Source of the DNA: Thermoanaerobaculia bacterium
GTDB lineage: Bacteria; Acidobacteriota; Thermoanaerobaculia; Multivoradales; Multivoraceae
Direction: 5' to 3'
DNA length: 64,000 nucleotides
Assembly: GCA_963666565.1 (NCBI GenBank)
Contig: OY762911.1
Span: forward strand, 288,001-352,000
The notes beneath the pieces were generated by a model. The model worked only from the letters and a program-made list of their open reading frames with translations. It was not told where the DNA came from and made no database searches. This document shows, piece after piece, positions 42,089-62,571 of this stretch. The translations under genes and the position numbers were made by a program. How positions within the stretch are numbered: position 1 is the first letter of the stretch; each line of letters opens with the position of its first letter.

Positions 42089-42212
42089 GCGGGTCGGAAG
42101 ACCCGCGCACCCAGCGGGCGGGTCGGAAGTCCCGCGCACCCAGCGGGCGGGTCGGAAAGACCCGCGCACCCAGGGCAGGTCAGGAAGACCCGCGCACCGA
42201 CCCGCGCACCCA
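42089..42212. repeat. Head-to-tail tandem of ~29-bp repeat arms (3 near-complete plus degenerate copies)
   Basis: GCGGGTCGGAAGACCCGCGCACCCAGCGG-like units at 42089, 42118, 42147. Confidence 0.9.
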
Positions 42213-42218
42213 AGGGGT

Positions 42219-58549: not shown

Positions 58550-59353
58550 TCAGAAGTTCGGATTCTCGCCTTCCGGGTCTTCCTGGGCGCGGCCGACCAT
58601 CGGCACGAAGCGGACGACGTCGACCTGGCGGCGTTCGAGTCCGTCGGGGGTCTTGCGGATGACCACCAGGTCCTGAAGAGCGCCGCCGACCGGCGCCACG
58701 AGGATGCCGTTCACCTTGAGCTGTTCGATCAGCGGCGGCGGCACTTCAGCCGGCGCGGCGGCAACCAGGATGCCGTCGAAGGGCGCCTCTTCCGGCCAAC
58801 CGCGGTAGCCGTCGCCGACCCGGATCTCGACGTTGCCGTACCCCAGGTCGGCCAGCACGTCCCGCGCCCGCTCGGCCAGGCCGTCGATGATCTCGATGGA
58901 ATGGACGCGCCGGGCCAGGCGCGCCAGCACCGCCGTCGTGTAGCCGGAACCGGTGCCGATCTCGAGCAGCTTCTCGTCGCCGTCGAGCTCCAGGAGGTCG
59001 GCCATCAACGCCACCACGTACGGCTGGGAGACCGTCTGGCCGGCGCCGATCTGCACCGGTTCGTCGCCGTAGGCGTCGTCTCGCAGGGAATCCGGCACGA
59101 ACTCGTGGCGGGGCACCGTCCGGAGCGCGTTCAGCAGCCTCGGTTCCTCGATCCCCCGGCCCCGGATCTGCTCCTCGACCATGGCCCGGCGCTGCGCGGC
59201 GAAGAGGTCGCCCTGGCCCGGCGGCTGGGCGGACGCGCCGGCCGCCGCGAACACGCAGACGGCGGCGGCGAGCGCAAGCGCGGTCCGAACCGGCCGCCCG
59301 GGGCGGCCGCCGGTCCGCGGCGCCTTCGACTTCGACTGCCGGACCCGTCGCAC
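58550..59353 (-). CDS. pcm: Protein-L-isoaspartate O-methyltransferase with N-terminal signal-like peptide
   Basis: VPRHEF, QTVSQP, LEIGTGSGY, GDGYRGWPEEAPFD, VRFVPM. Confidence 0.93.
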   Translation of the reverse strand: MRRVRQSKSKAPRTGGRPGRPVRTALALAAAVCVFAAAGASAQPPGQGDLFAAQRRAMVEEQIRGRGIEEPRLLNALRTVPRHEFVPDSLRDDAYGDEPVQIGAGQTVSQPYVVALMADLLELDGDEKLLEIGTGSGYTTAVLARLARRVHSIEIIDGLAERARDVLADLGYGNVEIRVGDGYRGWPEEAPFDGILVAAAPAEVPPPLIEQLKVNGILVAPVGGALQDLVVIRKTPDGLERRQVDVVRFVPMVGRAQEDPEGENPNF

Positions 59354-59476
59354 GGCCGCAATGATAGGCAAACGCCGTACCGGGTCGCTGGGTAATGGGA
59401 TGGTCCGCCCCGCCCTCTACGGCCTCTTGTAGGGCCAGAATGGGTTTTTCCCAACCAACAAGGGAGGAGACGGACC

Positions 59477-60535
59477 ATGAAGAAGGTTACTCGAGTCGGT
59501 ATCGATCTGGGCAAGCGCCTGTTCCAGGTGTGCGCGATGGACTCGTCGGGCGCGGTGGTGTTTCAGCGTCAGGTGAAGGCGTCGGGGCTGATGGAGTTGA
59601 TGGTGCAGCTCGAGCCGTGCCTGGTGGGCATGGAGGCGAGCTGCGGCGCGCACTACTGGGTGGAGAAGCTGAGCGCTCTGGGTCACGACGCGCGGATGAT
59701 GAGTCCTCAGTTCGTGCGGCCTTACGTGAAGTCGAACAAGAGCGACTACCACGACGCGGAGGCGATCTGCGAGGCGGTGTCCCGTCCGACGATGCGTTTC
59801 GTGCCGTACAAGACGAAGGAGCAGCGTGCTCTTCAGCAGGTTCATCGGAGCCGGGAGGCGGCGCTTCGCCGTCGCACGCAGTTGGTGAACCAGTTGCGGG
59901 GATTCCTGGGCGAGTACGGGATCGTGCTGCGTCAGGGCCGGGCGGTGGTCATGCGGGCGGTGCCCGACATCGCGAGCGACGCGGAGCGCGAGCTGCCGGG
60001 TCAGTTTCGCGCGCTGCTGTGGATGCAGTACGAGGCTCTGATGCAGGTCCACAAGGAGGTCGAGGACCTGACCGCGATGCTGGTGCGGGAGTCGAAGGAG
60101 AACCCTCACTGCCAGCGTCTGATGTCGATTCCGGGCATCGGTCCGATCGTGGCGACGGCGATCGTGGCGGCGGTGGGCAACGGCTGGGCTTTCAGCAGCG
60201 GTCGTCAGATGTCGGCCTGGATGGGCTTGGTGCCGCGTCAGGACTCGACCGGGGGTCGCACGGTGCTGCGCGGGATCAGCAAGCGCGGCGACCGTTACCT
60301 GCGCTCGCTCCTGATCCACGGTGCGCGGGCGGTCCTGCGCACGGCGGCGAAGGGCGAGCGAACGCGGCTGAAGGGCTGGGCGCTCGACGTCAAGCGGCGC
60401 CGGGGGCCGAACGTCGCCACGGTGGCACTGGCCAACAAGCTGGGCCGCATCGCCTGGGCGGTGCTTCGCCGCGGCGAGCTGTACCGCGACGACCGCCTCG
60501 CCGGGTCTCGGCAGAAGGTCTCTCGGGCCGCGTAG
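59477..60535 (+). CDS. IS110 family transposase/recombinase
   Basis: DEDD RuvC-like motifs (GIDLGK, MEAS, KSDYHDA), SIPGIGP, GLVPRQDSTGG, SKRGDRYLR; GGAGG RBS. Confidence 0.97.
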   Translation: MKKVTRVGIDLGKRLFQVCAMDSSGAVVFQRQVKASGLMELMVQLEPCLVGMEASCGAHYWVEKLSALGHDARMMSPQFVRPYVKSNKSDYHDAEAICEAVSRPTMRFVPYKTKEQRALQQVHRSREAALRRRTQLVNQLRGFLGEYGIVLRQGRAVVMRAVPDIASDAERELPGQFRALLWMQYEALMQVHKEVEDLTAMLVRESKENPHCQRLMSIPGIGPIVATAIVAAVGNGWAFSSGRQMSAWMGLVPRQDSTGGRTVLRGISKRGDRYLRSLLIHGARAVLRTAAKGERTRLKGWALDVKRRRGPNVATVALANKLGRIAWAVLRRGELYRDDRLAGSRQKVSRAA

Positions 60536-60539
60536 CAGG

Positions 60540-60800
60540 CGGCTCGATCCACATCGAATCAACCAAGGAGGATTGCCCCACCAAGTCGTTGCGAGGACAC
60601 AACGGAGCGATGGCGAAACAGGTCGGACCGGCGCGTCGAGAGCCTGAACCCGCGCAGGGCCATTCAACAGGCCGTCTGGGTGTACAGAAGAGACGACGCG
60701 CGCGTATTCCATCGGGGCCAGGGAGCTCGAAACCACGAGACGCCCAACAACAGGCCGAATACATGCAAGCAACGACACCTCTCTCGCCGGAACTCCGGAA
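60540..60800 (+). ncRNA. Putative bridge RNA / seekRNA in IS right non-coding end
   Basis: Stem-loop with ACCCGCGCA (60648-60656) and CTGGGTG (60676-60682) matching the two strands of the target; boundaries approximate. Confidence 0.75.
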
Positions 60801-60833
60801 AGTGCCCTTGCACAAGCGGGGCGGACCATACAT

Positions 60834-60914
60834 GCGCGGGTCGGGACGGCCTTCGGCCGGCGCGTTCCTGGCGGCCTTCGGCGGCAGCGGGTCAGAAGAC
60901 CCGCGCACCCGGCG
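60834..60914. repeat. Right part of the repeat element split by the IS (left part 59386-59393)
   Basis: GCGCGGGTC...GCGGGTCAGAAGACCCGCGCACCCGG. Confidence 0.85.
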
Positions 60915-62571
60915 GTTCGGCCACCCGGCGGATCAGGACGACCGTCTGGTCGTCGCCCTGCGGCAGACCGGCGCCGAAGCGGCTGACCTCGGCGTCGATG
61001 GCGTCCACGATCTCGGACAGCGGCCGCTCGCGGCGTTGGCGGAGGAAGTCCTCCAGCCGTTCCTGCCCGTACTCTTCGCCCTCCGGGGACTCGCACTCCG
61101 TGATCCCGTCGCTGTACAGGCAGAGCAGGTCGCCCGGCCCCATCTCCAGCGGCGCCACCCGGTAGCTGGCCTCGGGCAGCAGGCCGAGCGGCAGGCCGCT
61201 CGCCGGCAGCGGCGTCACTTCGCCGTTCGCACGCGCCAGGAGCCCCGGGTTGTGGCCCGCGTTGAGGTAGCGGACGGCCCGGTTCGCCGGATCGATCTCG
61301 GTCAGGATCAGGGTGATGAAGCGGTTGCTGGCGCTCGTCTCGACGATGTGCTTGTTCAGGCGATCGAAGAGTTCCGGCGAGAGCTCGGCGCCGACGCCTT
61401 CGCCGCCGAGCCGGCAGTCGTCGACGAGCAGCCGCAGCGCCGAGTCCAGGGTGGAGACGAGGAGCGCGGCCGGCATGCCCTTGCCGGTCACGTCGGCGAC
61501 CACCAGGCCGCGGCGGTCGCCGGCGAAGCGGAGCGAGCCGTAGTAGTCGCCGCCGACGTGGCGGGAGGGGCGGCTCCAGCCCACCGTCTCGAAGCAGCCG
61601 GCGCCGGGCATCTCGGCCGGCAGGATCCGGCGCTGGATCTCGGCCGCGAGCTCGACCTCCCGTTCCAGGCGCTCCTTCTCCAGCGCGTCCCGATGGAGCT
61701 TCGCGTTGGTCAGCGCGATGGCGGCCTGATTGGCGAACAGCGAGAGCGCCCGGCGGTCCGAGGCCGCGAAGGGGCCCACGCCCGTCCGGCTCTCCTTGTC
61801 GGCGACCACCAGCAGGCCGACGCTGCCGCTGCCCCCGTCGCCCTCGACGGGCACCGCGAGCGAGTGCTCCGCCGCGCGGATGACGCCCGCCGCCACCGCT
61901 TCCACGCCAGCCTCGTCGAAGCCGGAAGCCGGGTTGCCCGGCTCCCTGACCGGCGGCGCCTCGATCGTCTCGCGGGCGCCGCCGCCGATCGTGCCGGCCA
62001 GCGCCAGGCGCCCGTCCTCGTCGGCCAGGTAGAAGGCGCCGCGCCGGGCGTCCAGGAGGGAGACCGCCCGCAGCAGGATCTCCTCGGTCAGTTCCTCCAG
62101 GTTCAGGGTCGAGGCGATCGCCAGTCCCACGTCGTAGACCGCCTGCAGAGTGACGACGTTGTAGTTGTCCTGGAACTTGCGGTCCTTCAGCTCGTCCGCC
62201 AGTTCGCGCAACCGGAGACCGATGGCCAGCACGCCGGCGAGAGCGCGCTCCTCGGCCGCGTCGCCGGCGGCGCCGGCGGCTTCGTCGCCGCCGCCCGCGC
62301 AGTAGAGGACGAGGTCGTGCTCCAGGCGCCGCTCGCTCTTGCCGAGCACGCCCCAGGAGGCCACCGGGCCGCCGTCCCGCCGGTAGATCTGGGCGCCCTC
62401 CAGGCCGCGGGCCCGGCACCAGTGACCCACGAGCAGGGTCTGGGCCGCGCCCGTCTCCCAGTCCGCGACGTCGGCCGCCGCCGCGAGCCGCCAAAGCTCG
62501 GCGCCGATCCCGGCGCCGGTCGCCGCCGCCGACCCCGGCGCCCGCGCGGAACCGGCGGCCGGCGAGGTCAC
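60892..62571 (-). CDS. GAF + PP2C (SpoIIE/RsbU-like) phosphatase
   Basis: VGGDYY, VADVTGKG, NAGHNP, LYSDGITE, DDQT. Confidence 0.92.
   Translation of the reverse strand: MTSPAAGSARAPGSAAATGAGIGAELWRLAAAADVADWETGAAQTLLVGHWCRARGLEGAQIYRRDGGPVASWGVLGKSERRLEHDLVLYCAGGGDEAAGAAGDAAEERALAGVLAIGLRLRELADELKDRKFQDNYNVVTLQAVYDVGLAIASTLNLEELTEEILLRAVSLLDARRGAFYLADEDGRLALAGTIGGGARETIEAPPVREPGNPASGFDEAGVEAVAAGVIRAAEHSLAVPVEGDGGSGSVGLLVVADKESRTGVGPFAASDRRALSLFANQAAIALTNAKLHRDALEKERLEREVELAAEIQRRILPAEMPGAGCFETVGWSRPSRHVGGDYYGSLRFAGDRRGLVVADVTGKGMPAALLVSTLDSALRLLVDDCRLGGEGVGAELSPELFDRLNKHIVETSASNRFITLILTEIDPANRAVRYLNAGHNPGLLARANGEVTPLPASGLPLGLLPEASYRVAPLEMGPGDLLCLYSDGITECESPEGEEYGQERLEDFLRQRRERPLSEIVDAIDAEVSRFGAGLPQGDDQTVVLIRRVAEPPGARVF

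What the first reader, a model, noticed from the sequence alone, without database searches (positions are those of the whole stretch)
59386..60914. IS1111-type recombinase with a readable bridge/seekRNA programmed against the genome's own palindromic repeat
Seen: the IS splits a repeat arm exactly (CGCTGGGT | IS | GCGCGGGTC) with no target duplication. The 3' non-coding end has an outer stem (GCGCGTCG 60631-60638 / CGACGCGC 60694-60701) and an inner GGCC hairpin. Between them lie ACCCGCGCA (reverse complement of TGCGCGGGT) and CTGGGTG. These overlap on a TG core and spell the 14-nt target CTGGGTGCGCGGGT, which is also found in other repeat copies in this window (e.g. 1421, 17805, 42089). Established: IS110/IS1111 elements use a non-coding RNA for target choice, and IS621 targets REPs. 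Inference: this is an intact RNA-guided recombinase with a new target specificity and possibly very many genomic landing sites. Donor-guide candidates (ATACAT 60759-60764, TTCCAT ~60707) are tentative.
Basis: partly seen in the sequence, partly recalled or inferred. Interest (0 to 1): 0.9.

Follow-up and report, generated by a model that had tools for sequence, protein, structure and literature searches.

The report
RNA-guided IS1111-type insertion sequence targeting REPs
This is an intact jumping gene of the known IS1111 type that carries its own small guide RNA, spelling out the 14-base site inside a host repeat where it inserts; it is a clean new example of a known mechanism, not a new kind of system.

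Summary
Window 59394-60833 is a 1440-bp IS1111-group insertion sequence. It has a 352-aa DEDD transposase, 14-bp subterminal inverted repeats and a 298-nt 3' non-coding region. The genome holds 5 identical copies, all in one orientation at (C/A)TGGGT|GCGCGGGTC with no target duplication. The uninterrupted 14-mer occurs 526 times, inside a REP-like hairpin repeat.

The 3' region encodes a 154-nt seekRNA/bridge-RNA-like element (60621-60774). ACCCGCGCA is complementary to the top strand of the right half-site. CTGGGTG is identical to the left half-site plus one base. They lie on the two sides of one internal loop, in the order published for IS1111 seekRNAs.

The main support is comparative. In 35 full-length copies from six related Thermoanaerobaculia genomes, the guide changes at three positions exactly where the right flank changes (GCGCGGGT to GCGCCGRC). 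A covariance model finds the same RNA 3' of the transposase gene in 10 of 10 unrelated IS1111-type plasmid elements. Guides match their own flanks and not other elements' flanks.

The donor guide ATACAT(GC) is supported. TTCCAT is not resolved. No RNA or transposition data exist. Verdict: new member of a known kind, moderate interest.

The parts
59388..59393 (+). Left half of the target (CTGGGT), left flank of the IS
   Evidence: the same hexamer flanks 4 of 5 own copies (the fifth has ATGGGT) and 35 of 35 full-length copies in relatives.
59394..60833 (+). Whole IS1111-group insertion sequence, 1440 bp
   Evidence: 5 copies in the genome; the fifth copy is identical over all 1440 nt; relatives at 82.6-84.9% identity align exactly from base 1 to base 1440.
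59394..59399 (+). Left terminal extension AATGGG. Its first three bases (AAT) would complete the -10 box of a circle-junction promoter.
   Evidence: AATGxx precedes the sTIR in the relatives and in IS4321. The junction promoter is inferred.
59400..59413 (+). Left subterminal inverted repeat ATGGTCCGCCCCGC
   Evidence: 14-bp exact inverted repeat with 60816-60829.
59477..60535 (+). Transposase gene, 352 aa, DEDD/RuvC-like N-terminal domain plus Transposase_20 C-terminal domain
   Evidence: D10, E53, D90, D93 and G250-L251-x-P253...[S/T]258-G259 are conserved in 12 aligned transposases. T258 aligns with the Ser of the ...ESG... motif of ISCro4.
60621..60774 (+). Predicted seekRNA / bridge RNA (long form, 154 nt)
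   Evidence: covariance model R1 scores 124.9 bits, and this is the only hit in the window; 5 hits in the genome, one per IS copy; covariation.
60631..60638 (+). P1 outer stem, 5' arm (GCGCGTCG)
   Evidence: helix 2, 8 of 8 pairs with changes on both sides, 92.3% of cells paired.
60648..60656 (+). T guide ACCCGCGCA, complementary to the top strand T|GCGCGGGT (last IS or left-flank base plus 8 nt of the right half-site)
   Evidence: it becomes GTCGGCGCA where the flank is GCGCCGAC or GCGCCGGC; the cognate match is 7 nt or longer in 9 of 14 lineages against 1 of 176 cross pairs.
60658..60673 (+). P2 hairpin (GGCC, 8-nt loop, GGCC) separating the two target guides
   Evidence: helix 4, 4 of 4 pairs with changes on both sides, 94.2% paired.
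60676..60682 (+). B guide CTGGGTG, identical to the top strand of the left half-site plus the first base of the right half (so it would pair with the bottom strand)
   Evidence: the cognate match is 6 nt or longer in 12 of 14 lineages against 2 of 176 cross pairs.
60694..60701 (+). P1 outer stem, 3' arm (CGACGCGC)
60706..60712 (+). Candidate donor guide for the left end: AUUCCAU against LE bases 2-8 (ATGGGAT), with one G:U pair
   Evidence: the match is perfect (ATGGAAT) in L052, L055 and L057; not discriminating, because left ends are conserved across the family (own mean 5.4, cross mean 5.0).
60716..60756 (+). P3 two-part hairpin of the second (donor) module, with a variable terminal loop
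   Evidence: helices 5 and 6, 100% and 90% of cells paired.
60759..60766 (+). Donor guide for the right end: ATACATGC, the last 6 nt of the IS plus 2 nt of the right flank
   Evidence: the cognate match is 7 nt or longer in 13 of 14 lineages against 8 of 176 cross pairs. The RE termini differ (ACAT, ACAC, GTAC, ATAT, AGAT, CTAT, GTAT, ATAC, GTAG) and the motif follows them.
60808..60813 (+). Putative -35 box TTGCAC of a junction promoter. It lies 17 nt before CAT (60831-60833), which would join AAT (59394-59396) in a circle to give CATAAT.
   Evidence: Sequence and position. The same geometry is seen in L052 (TTGGCA-17-TATAAT) and IS4321 (TTGCAA-17-GATAAT). Inferred; no circle was observed.
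60816..60829 (+). Right subterminal inverted repeat GCGGGGCGGACCAT, followed by the 4-nt extension ACAT (60830-60833)
60834..60842 (+). Right half of the target (GCGCGGGTC), which is the 5' arm of the REP hairpin in most copies
60899..60912 (-). Partner copy of the repeat in inverted orientation (CCGGGTGCGCGGGT, 1 mismatch)

Best explanation
Window 59394-60833 is an intact, recently active member of the IS1111 group of the IS110 family. Its DEDD transposase is predicted to work as a ribonucleoprotein with a non-coding RNA transcribed from the 3' non-coding region (about 60621-60774).

The RNA has two modules. Module 1 is a stem (P1) closing an internal loop. The 5' side of that loop (ACCCGCGCA) pairs with the top strand of T|GCGCGGGT. 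The 3' side (CUGGGUG) pairs with the bottom strand of CTGGGT|G. The two guides are separated by a small hairpin (P2), and together they read the 14-nt site CTGGGTGCGCGGGT with a 2-nt TG overlap. Module 2 is a hairpin (P3) flanked by AUUCCAU, a candidate reader of the left IS end, and AUACAUGC, a copy of the right IS end plus 2 flank bases.

The target lies at the 5' foot of a REP-like hairpin repeat (CTGGGTGCGCGGGTCTTCYGACCCGC). The genome holds 526 exact sites, and 5 of them (counting one with a left-half mismatch) carry the IS.

Shown here: the anatomy, the site specificity, the conserved RNA structure and the guide-flank covariation. Inferred from the published IS1111/IS110 mechanism: excision to a circle, a junction promoter (TTGCAC-17-CAT|AAT) driving the transposase gene and the RNA, RNA-protein complex formation, and RNA-guided integration without duplication.
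For: Protein:
- Pfam PF01548 + PF02371 and NF033542 'IS110 family RNA-guided transposase', 341 bits against a cut-off of 140.
- 40% identity over residues 1-336 to transposases annotated IS4321 and IS5075.
- D10/E53/D90/D93 and the GLxP....[S/T]G motif are conserved.

Element:
- 14-bp sTIR, an 83-nt 5' NCR and a 298-nt 3' NCR.
- 5 copies, identical.

Site:
- 5 of 5 own copies and 35 of 35 full-length copies in six related genomes sit at xTGGGT|GCGC..., in one orientation, with no duplication.

Natural reprogramming:
- The 21 identical copies in genome G001 carry the guide GTCGGCGCA and sit at GCGCCGAC (7) or GCGCCGGC (14, one rU:dG pair).
- G001 has 0 GGGT-type sites and 413 CCGRC-type sites.
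- Three guide positions change, exactly opposite the three changed target positions.

RNA:
- The same topology appears in 10 of 10 constrained folds.
- Model R1 hits 10 of 10 plasmid IS1111-type loci that were not used to build it, always just 3' of the transposase gene.
- 92.5% of cells are paired against 66.5% in shuffles (0 of 500 reach it). 22 of 24 pairs have compensatory changes. Slid controls give 27-47%.

Guide against flank, over 14 lineages:
- T guide, 7 nt or longer: 9 of 14 against 1 of 176.
- B guide, 6 nt or longer: 12 of 14 against 2 of 176.
- Right-end donor guide, 7 nt or longer: 13 of 14 against 8 of 176.

The order (top-strand match 5' of bottom-strand match, overlapping in the target) is the one reported for IS1111 seekRNAs (PMC11187229, section 'A seekRNA finds the target', read).
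Against: - No RNA evidence: no RNA run holds the element.
- No circle junction and no empty allele of this locus was seen in the contigs of 4 DNA runs.
- No Rfam family matches.
- The MFE fold of the whole NCR is not better than shuffles (z = -1.0).
- Within-sequence chance of the two matches is 12 of 1000.
- RNAalifold on the close relatives pairs the two guides with each other (ACCC/GGGU), so in this IS they could be partly sequestered.
- The left-end donor guide is not supported by my control.
- L006's guide has 1 mismatch to its single flank. L054 and L056 match their flanks poorly.
- The alignment used for pair counts was fitted to the model's structure, which favours that structure.
Confidence: 0.88

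Rival explanations
1. The element is a dead or dormant relic. The anatomy is right but it no longer moves, so the guide RNA reading has no present function in this genome.
For: Only 5 of 526 exact sites are occupied. No circle junction, no empty allele of this locus and no RNA holder were seen. These are absences in data that cannot show them well.
Against: All five copies are identical over 1440 nt with an intact 352-aa reading frame. The sister element in G001 has 21 identical copies. Catalytic residues are conserved. The depth of the IS in 4 DNA runs is about 5-6 times that of the flanks, as 5 copies predict.
Confidence: 0.07
2. Target choice is made by the protein, or by recognition of the REP hairpin as a DNA structure. 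The two matches in the non-coding region are incidental GC-rich matches or a captured piece of a repeat.
For: 12 of 1000 shuffles of the NCR give matches at least as long somewhere. The target is part of a hairpin in most copies.
Against: The guide changes with the flank in relatives at three positions. The matches sit at fixed positions of a structure conserved across 28 sequences. Cognate matches far exceed cross-locus matches. A captured repeat would carry both halves on one strand and contiguous, whereas here one is complementary and the other identical, split by a hairpin. The window copy and L022 lack the second hairpin arm next to the site yet carry the IS.
Confidence: 0.03
3. The RNA serves only target recognition, like the short seekRNA. 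The second module is not a donor-binding loop, the ends are recognised by the protein through the sTIR, and the ATACAUGC motif has another role such as processing or excision from the flanked state.
For: Siddiquee et al. report that the short 82-nt seekRNA alone supports ISEc11 movement, and that the donor must be flanked by the target (PMC11187229, sections read). The left-end guide is not discriminated. ATACAUGC matches the integrated right junction (8 nt) better than the predicted circle junction (6 nt).
Against: The right-end motif follows the RE terminus in 13 of 14 lineages. Durrant et al. report donor-complementary loops in IS1111 bridge RNAs (PMC11208160, passage read; I could not see the figures).
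Confidence: 0.25

Closest known systems
ISPa11 (IS1111 group; targets a Pseudomonas aeruginosa REP; seekRNA shown experimentally, Siddiquee et al. 2024, PMC11187229)
   Same: IS1111 layout (sTIR, 3' NCR). Inserts at one position and in one orientation in a REP. The paper reports an NCR-derived RNA with the top-strand match 5' of the bottom-strand match (sections read).
   Different: Different host phylum (the closest relatives of this element are labelled Thermoanaerobaculia, Acidobacteriota) and a different 14-nt target. I did not fetch the ISPa11 sequence, so no direct alignment was made. The element here has no experimental support.
[quoted passage not shown]
   Same: Transposase 40% identical over residues 1-336. 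The layout matches: AATGxG extension plus sTIR beginning ATGGTC on the left, and sTIR plus a 4-nt extension on the right. Model R1 aligns its 3' NCR over the full length, though L051 was in the training alignment. In the IS4321 copy examined, the T guide matches T|TCCGTTTT (9 nt), the B guide matches TATTT|TC (7 nt) and the right-end guide is ATAGAT+TC.
   Different: Different target, and a 3-nt rather than 2-nt overlap of the two guides. That target is a transposon end, not a chromosomal repeat.
ISEc11 / ISXne4 pair (natural re-direction of an IS1111 seekRNA, PMC11187229 section 'The seekRNA is programmable')
   Same: Related transposases with a conserved RNA stem but changed guide bases that match a changed target (read). 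The WIN-type and G001-type elements here show the same thing (79% aa identity, 3 guide positions).
   Different: Here only the right half-site changed (3 of 14 positions). The change tracks which variant of one host repeat family is present: G001 has 0 against 413 sites.
IS621 (IS110 group; bridge RNA; targets E. coli REPs; structures 8WT6 and others)
   Same: DEDD plus C-terminal Ser-type domain (phmmer E = 2e-09 over the C-terminal half). REP targeting. A two-loop RNA that reads both strands of target and donor.
   Different: In IS621 the RNA is encoded in the left end, 5' of the gene, the guide order is reversed and the sTIR is only 2-3 bp (PMC11208160 passage read; PMC11187229 abstract). 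Only the C-terminal half of the protein aligns by sequence.
ISPpu9 (Pseudomonas putida KT2440; inserted into REPs; sRNA Ssr9 downstream of the transposase gene; PMC12288879, abstract only, seen)
   Same: REP-inserted IS110-family element with a small RNA gene 3' of the transposase gene.
   Different: ISPpu9 has extra orphan copies of its RNA gene. Here model R1 finds only the 5 IS-borne copies.

Membership tests
IS1111 group of the IS110 family | DEDD (RuvC-like) N-terminal domain plus Transposase_20 C-terminal domain | tested here: met
   PF01548 at 72.6 bits and PF02371 at 84.4 bits. NF033542 at 341 bits against a cut-off of 140. D10, E53, D90 and D93 are invariant in 12 sequences. Reading these four as the catalytic tetrad is my inference from the D..E..DxxD pattern.
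IS1111 group of the IS110 family | Transposase related over its full length to IS1111-group transposases, with the GL-P----S(t)G motif (PMC11187229, section 'IS1111 and IS110 family features') | tested here: met
   40% identity over residues 1-336 to IS4321 and IS5075 transposases. GLVPRQDSTG is at residues 250-259, and T258 aligns with the Ser of ISCro4. The founder IS1111 itself was not compared.
IS1111 group of the IS110 family | Subterminal inverted repeats of 7-17 bp (PMC11208160 passage) | tested here: met
   14-bp exact sTIR at 59400-59413 and 60816-60829, lying 6 nt and 4 nt inside the ends.
IS1111 group of the IS110 family | The longer non-coding region lies downstream of the transposase gene | tested here: met
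   298 nt downstream against 83 nt upstream.
IS1111 group of the IS110 family | Site-specific and orientation-specific insertion without target duplication | tested here: met
   40 of 40 full-length copies (5 own plus 35 in relatives) sit at xTGGGT|GCGC... The uninterrupted site exists 526 times.
IS1111 group of the IS110 family | Circular intermediate with a promoter assembled at the junction | not testable with these tools
   The sequence allows TTGCAC-17 nt-CAT|AAT, and relatives have the same geometry. Contigs of 4 DNA runs show no junction, but they could not be expected to.
seekRNA / bridge RNA | [quoted passage not shown] | tested here: met
   60648-60656 and 60676-60682, with a TG overlap. 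The order is as in PMC11187229.
seekRNA / bridge RNA | Guides change with the target among related elements | tested here: met
   ACCCGCGCA pairs with GCGCGGGT, and GTCGGCGCA with GCGCCGAC or GCGCCGGC. Cognate against cross-locus matches: 9 of 14 against 1 of 176 (T), and 12 of 14 against 2 of 176 (B).
seekRNA / bridge RNA | Conserved secondary structure placing the guides in an internal loop | tested here: met
   92.5% of cells paired, 22 of 24 pairs with compensatory changes, 0 of 500 shuffles reach the observed values. The alignment was fitted to the model.
seekRNA / bridge RNA | Second loop that reads the IS ends (donor) | tested here: inconclusive
   Right-end guide met: 13 of 14 against 8 of 176. 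Left-end guide not discriminated: own mean 5.4 against cross mean 5.0.
seekRNA / bridge RNA | The RNA is made, binds the transposase and is required for movement | not testable with these tools
   No RNA run is listed for this sequence.
REP-type host repeat as landing site | Short imperfect palindrome present in hundreds of copies, often in inverted pairs | tested here: met
   526 exact 14-mers. The consensus is CTGGGTGCGCGGGTCTTCYGACCCGC followed by a second hairpin. Inverted pairs lie about 127 nt apart in the window. Intergenic location was not tested. There is one Y1-transposase (PF01797) hit in the genome.

The most novel reading that the evidence does not exclude
The IS lineage and the host's REP family are co-evolving. 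Within one clade of Thermoanaerobaculia, the same IS has re-aimed its right-half guide by three bases to whichever REP stem variant its host carries: 526 GGGT-type sites here, against 0 GGGT-type and 413 CCGRC-type in G001, where the re-aimed element has expanded to at least 21 copies. The left-half guide and the shared CTGGGT foot of the repeat stay fixed. On this reading, REP variants act as lineage-specific landing pads, and guide drift of a few bases decides whether the IS can invade a new host. A second point is that the right-end donor guide regularly runs 1-3 nt into the flank (11 of the 12 different elements among the 14 lineages tested). This would fit a handshake-like pairing with the recombination product or a role in excision.
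Probability: 0.5. Interest if true: 0.45.

Novelty: new member of a known kind. Interest (0 to 1): 0.35.

Why it matters
It adds a fully readable IS1111-type RNA-guided recombinase from a little-studied, 70% G+C acidobacterial lineage. All four guide segments are assignable by eye. It also comes with a ready-made natural experiment: sister elements differ at three guide bases and at the three matching target bases. That pair is a convenient test case for how many guide changes suffice to retarget an IS1111 enzyme, and whether rU:dG pairs are tolerated. In G001, insertions fall at the A and G variants in proportion to their availability: 7 of 21 insertions against 138 of 413 sites.

It does not reveal a new mechanism. 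NCBI's family model already names this protein type 'RNA-guided transposase', and Durrant et al. predicted bridge RNAs in 93% of the IS1111 elements in ISfinder.

Tried and rejected
Rfam scan of 59300-61000 at E up to 10: only chance-level hits, and no bridge RNA or seekRNA family reached its threshold.

Unconstrained MFE fold of the whole NCR: z = -1.0, uninformative in this GC-rich sequence.

RNAalifold on 11 close relatives: it produced long-range pairs and paired the two guides with each other. I did not adopt that structure, because those pairs break in L012 and L006.

The look-up of sequencing runs, kind rna: no RNA holder listed. 4 DNA holders from one study.

Read laying on contigs of those 4 runs: no contig joins across the IS, and no circle junction was seen. 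The IS sits on a collapsed repeat contig spanning 59388-60842, at about 5-6 times the flank depth. This says nothing about excision.

Preference test in G001: 7 of 21 insertions lie at CCGAC, against 138 of 413 free sites. There is no preference for the perfectly matched variant over the G:U variant.

Left-end donor guide: not separable from cross-locus background.

sTIR-based end calling failed for L034, L043, L044, L060, L062, L063 and L064. The causes were a mutated repeat, a contig edge, or no exact repeat of 8 nt or more starting at ATGG. Those loci were left out of the 14-lineage test. L029 and L047 and the second hits in L056 and L062 were also left out, as truncated or extra matches.

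Literature: a full-text search for 'Thermoanaerobaculia' with 'IS110' found 0 papers. 'Multivorans' with 'Thermoanaerobaculia' found 2 unrelated papers, seen as listing only.

ISfinder, Durrant et al.'s supplementary tables and the figures of both 2024 papers could not be seen. I therefore cannot say whether this element or a close relative is already catalogued or drawn there.

Full report
**1. What is in the sequence**

Between CGCTGGGT (ending at 59393) and GCGCGGGTC (starting at 60834) lies a 1440-bp element, 59394-60833. It starts AATGGG-ATGGTCCGCCCCGC and ends GCGGGGCGGACCAT-ACAT. This gives 14-bp subterminal inverted repeats at 59400-13 and 60816-29, set 6 nt and 4 nt inside the ends.

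One ORF fills it, 59477-60535, 352 aa. It matches:
- Pfam DEDD_Tnp_IS110 and Transposase_20;
- NCBIfam NF033542 'IS110 family RNA-guided transposase' at 341 bits, against a cut-off of 140.

The 5' non-coding part is 83 nt and the 3' part is 298 nt.

**2. Copies and target**

The window lies in a single-contig genome of 4,786,144 bp with 70% G+C. BLAST finds 5 copies. The fifth, reported at 99.93%, is identical over all 1440 nt; the difference lay in the flank.

- Four copies are flanked CTGGGT|...|GCGCGGGTC. One is flanked ATGGGT|...|GCGCGGGTC.
- There is no duplication. A single T is ambiguous between the flank and the IS end.
- The uninterrupted 14-mer CTGGGTGCGCGGGT occurs 526 times (288 + 238).
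- In the window it occurs 14 times at up to 1 mismatch, against 0.10 expected.
- The consensus around it is CTGGGTGCGCGGGTCTTCYGACCCGC followed by a second GC hairpin, a REP-like repeat often found in inverted pairs.
- The IS always sits at the 5' foot of the first hairpin.
- The window copy and locus L022 lack the second arm of the hairpin next to the site. The 14-15 nt sequence, not the hairpin, therefore seems sufficient.

**3. Relatives and natural retargeting**

A scan of one genome per species found 50 loci. Those at 76-92% amino-acid identity came mostly from Thermoanaerobaculia and 'Candidatus Multivorans' MAGs, with fragments in one MAG labelled Vicinamibacteraceae.

35 loci carry a full-length element that aligns from base 1 to base 1440 at 82.6-84.9% identity, which confirms the ends. 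All 35 have CTGGGT on the left. On the right:
- 13 have GCGCGGGT;
- 15 have GCGCCGGC;
- 7 have GCGCCGAC.

Aligning the 11 distinct elements gives this picture:
- CTGGGTG is invariant.
- ACCCGCGCA is kept in every element that sits at GCGCGGGT.
- It reads GTCGGCGCA in the 21 identical copies of genome G001, which sit at GCGCCGAC (7) or GCGCCGGC (14). GCGCCGGC needs one rU:dG pair.
- It reads GCCGCCGCA in L006, a single copy at GCGCCGGC, with one mismatch.

The three guide positions that differ between the window element and the G001 element lie exactly opposite the three target positions that differ.

Site counts fit this:

| Genome | GGGT-type sites | CCGRC-type sites |
|---|---|---|
| G001 | 0 | 413 |
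| G002 | 52 | 21 |
| G003 | 69 | 40 |
| G004 | 166 | 72 |
| G005 | 60 | 232 |

In G001, 138 of the 413 free sites are the A variant, against 7 of 21 insertions. The G:U variant is therefore used as readily as the perfect match.

**4. The RNA**

The matches lie in a defined architecture:

| Feature | Coordinates | Sequence / note |
|---|---|---|
| P0 hairpin | 60621-29 | |
| P1 stem | 60631-38 with 60694-701 | |
| Short helix | | CUG/CAG |
| T guide | 60648-56 | |
| P2 hairpin | 60658-73 | |
| B guide | 60676-82 | |
| Candidate left-end guide | 60706-12 | AUUCCAU |
| P3 hairpin (two-part) | 60716-56 | |
| Right-end guide | 60759-66 | AUACAUGC |

Folding ten diverse elements with the guides held single-stranded gave this same topology in 10 of 10.

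A covariance model built from them (R1) gave these results:
- One hit in the window (124.9 bits).
- Five hits in the genome, one per IS copy and no orphan.
- A full-length hit just 3' of the transposase gene in 10 of 10 plasmid IS1111-type loci that were not in the training set, at 38.8-94.9 bits.

On the resulting 28-sequence alignment:
- 92.5% of cells form standard pairs, against 66.5% in shuffles (0 of 500 reach it).
- 22 of 24 pairs show changes on both sides.
- Sliding the partners by 1-3 columns drops pairing to 27-47%.
- The alignment is fitted to the model, which favours the structure. The helices differ completely in sequence between lineages, which shared ancestry alone would not explain.

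**5. Guides against flanks across the family**

I tested 14 lineages whose ends I could place from the sTIR alone. For each, I compared the loop segments defined by alignment columns with the element's own flanks and with the flanks of the other lineages.

| Segment | Threshold | Own flanks | Other lineages' flanks |
|---|---|---|---|
| T guide | 7 nt or more, exact | 9 of 14 | 1 of 176 |
| B guide | 6 nt or more | 12 of 14 | 2 of 176 |
| Right-end donor guide | 7 nt or more | 13 of 14 | 8 of 176 |
| Left-end donor guide | mean length | 5.4 | 5.0 |

The left-end guide is uninformative because left ends are nearly the same in all lineages. Poor cognate matches (L054, L056, partly L006 and L059) are single copies that may sit at secondary sites.

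The IS4321 copy examined shows the same reading frame of guides as the window element. The right-end guide extends 1-3 nt into the right flank in most lineages, and 2 nt (GC) here. It therefore matches the integrated right junction better than the predicted circle junction. I can only offer a shared core, a handshake-like pairing or a role in excision as inferences.

**6. Protein**

- tblastn against plasmids gives 46-49% identity to unnamed IS110-family transposases.
- It gives 40% over residues 1-336 to transposases annotated IS4321 and IS5075.
- In a 12-sequence alignment, D10, E53, D90 and D93 are invariant, as is G250-L251-x-P253-x-Q255...G259 with S or T at 258.
- phmmer against PDB sequences hits ISCro4 (9T56) and IS621 (8WT6) at about 1e-9, over the C-terminal half only. 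T258 aligns to the Ser of their ...SG motif.
- This fits the 'GL-P----S(t)G' motif that Siddiquee et al. give for IS1111 transposases.

**7. How it most likely works**

This follows the published mechanism: PMC11187229, sections read, and PMC11208160, passages read. All steps below are inferred for this element.

1. The element excises as a circle.
2. Joining the ends creates TTGCAC-17 nt-CAT|AAT, a near-consensus promoter. The same geometry gives TATAAT in L052 and GATAAT in IS4321.
3. This promoter drives the transposase gene and the downstream RNA.
4. The RNA, perhaps processed to a module-1 form of about 75-80 nt, binds the transposase.
5. The T guide pairs with the top strand of T|GCGCGGGT, and the B guide with the bottom strand of CTGGGT|G.
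6. Recombination at the T|G step inserts the IS in one orientation without duplication.

What I have shown is the anatomy, the specificity, the conserved structure and the covariation. I found no RNA run, and the contigs of four DNA runs show neither a circle nor an empty allele.

**8. Comparison and novelty**

The element passes every membership test for the IS1111 group that can be run on sequence. It also passes the sequence-level tests for a seekRNA/bridge RNA. REP targeting is known for ISPa11, IS621 and ISPpu9, and natural retargeting is known for ISEc11/ISXne4.

Three things are new:
- the host lineage;
- the particular 14-nt target;
- a well-documented three-base guide switch that follows the REP variant of the host.

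A full-text search for Thermoanaerobaculia with IS110 found no paper.

Verdict: a real, intact and very probably RNA-guided IS1111-type element. It is a new member of a known kind and of moderate interest.

Noticed in passing
window 42101-42213 (- strand): Four copies of the target 14-mer (two exact, two with 1 mismatch) lie in tandem at 29-40-nt spacing, forming a small array of the REP-like unit. The IS copies at genome 724502 and 803510 also sit inside such tandem arrays.
   Followed up: no
G000:C1:749427-749648 (outside the window): The genome has a single Y1-transposase (PF01797) match, at 36.3 bits and over the cut-off, in a 304-aa open frame. It is a candidate REP-associated tyrosine transposase that could be the spreader of the repeat family the IS targets. 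It lies about 8 kb from the IS copy at 740358-741813.
   Followed up: no
L056:548-688 and L062:572-674: In two plasmid loci (Mesorhizobium, Paracoccus), model R1 finds a second seekRNA-like match upstream of the transposase gene (51.5 and 21.8 bits). It could be a remnant of a neighbouring element or an orphan guide RNA.
   Followed up: no
window 59388-59752, as seen in runs X2-X4: Besides the exact IS, contigs of three DNA runs carry a variant of the left end with 27 substitutions and 4 gaps over 365 nt, at about one tenth of the depth. This suggests that a related IS, or a related strain, coexists in the same samples.
   Followed up: no
L034 (genome G005): This is a single copy whose right sTIR carries a substitution (GGGCCAT for GGACCAT) and whose P1 3' arm is rearranged. 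It sits in a genome where the other REP variant dominates (232 against 60 sites). It may be a decaying copy.
   Followed up: partly
L029, L030, L031, L035, L039, L042, L045, L047, L048, L050: Truncated or interrupted copies of the same IS occur in the related genomes. One example is L029, where the last ~77 nt, including the right-end guide and the sTIR, are replaced.
   Followed up: no
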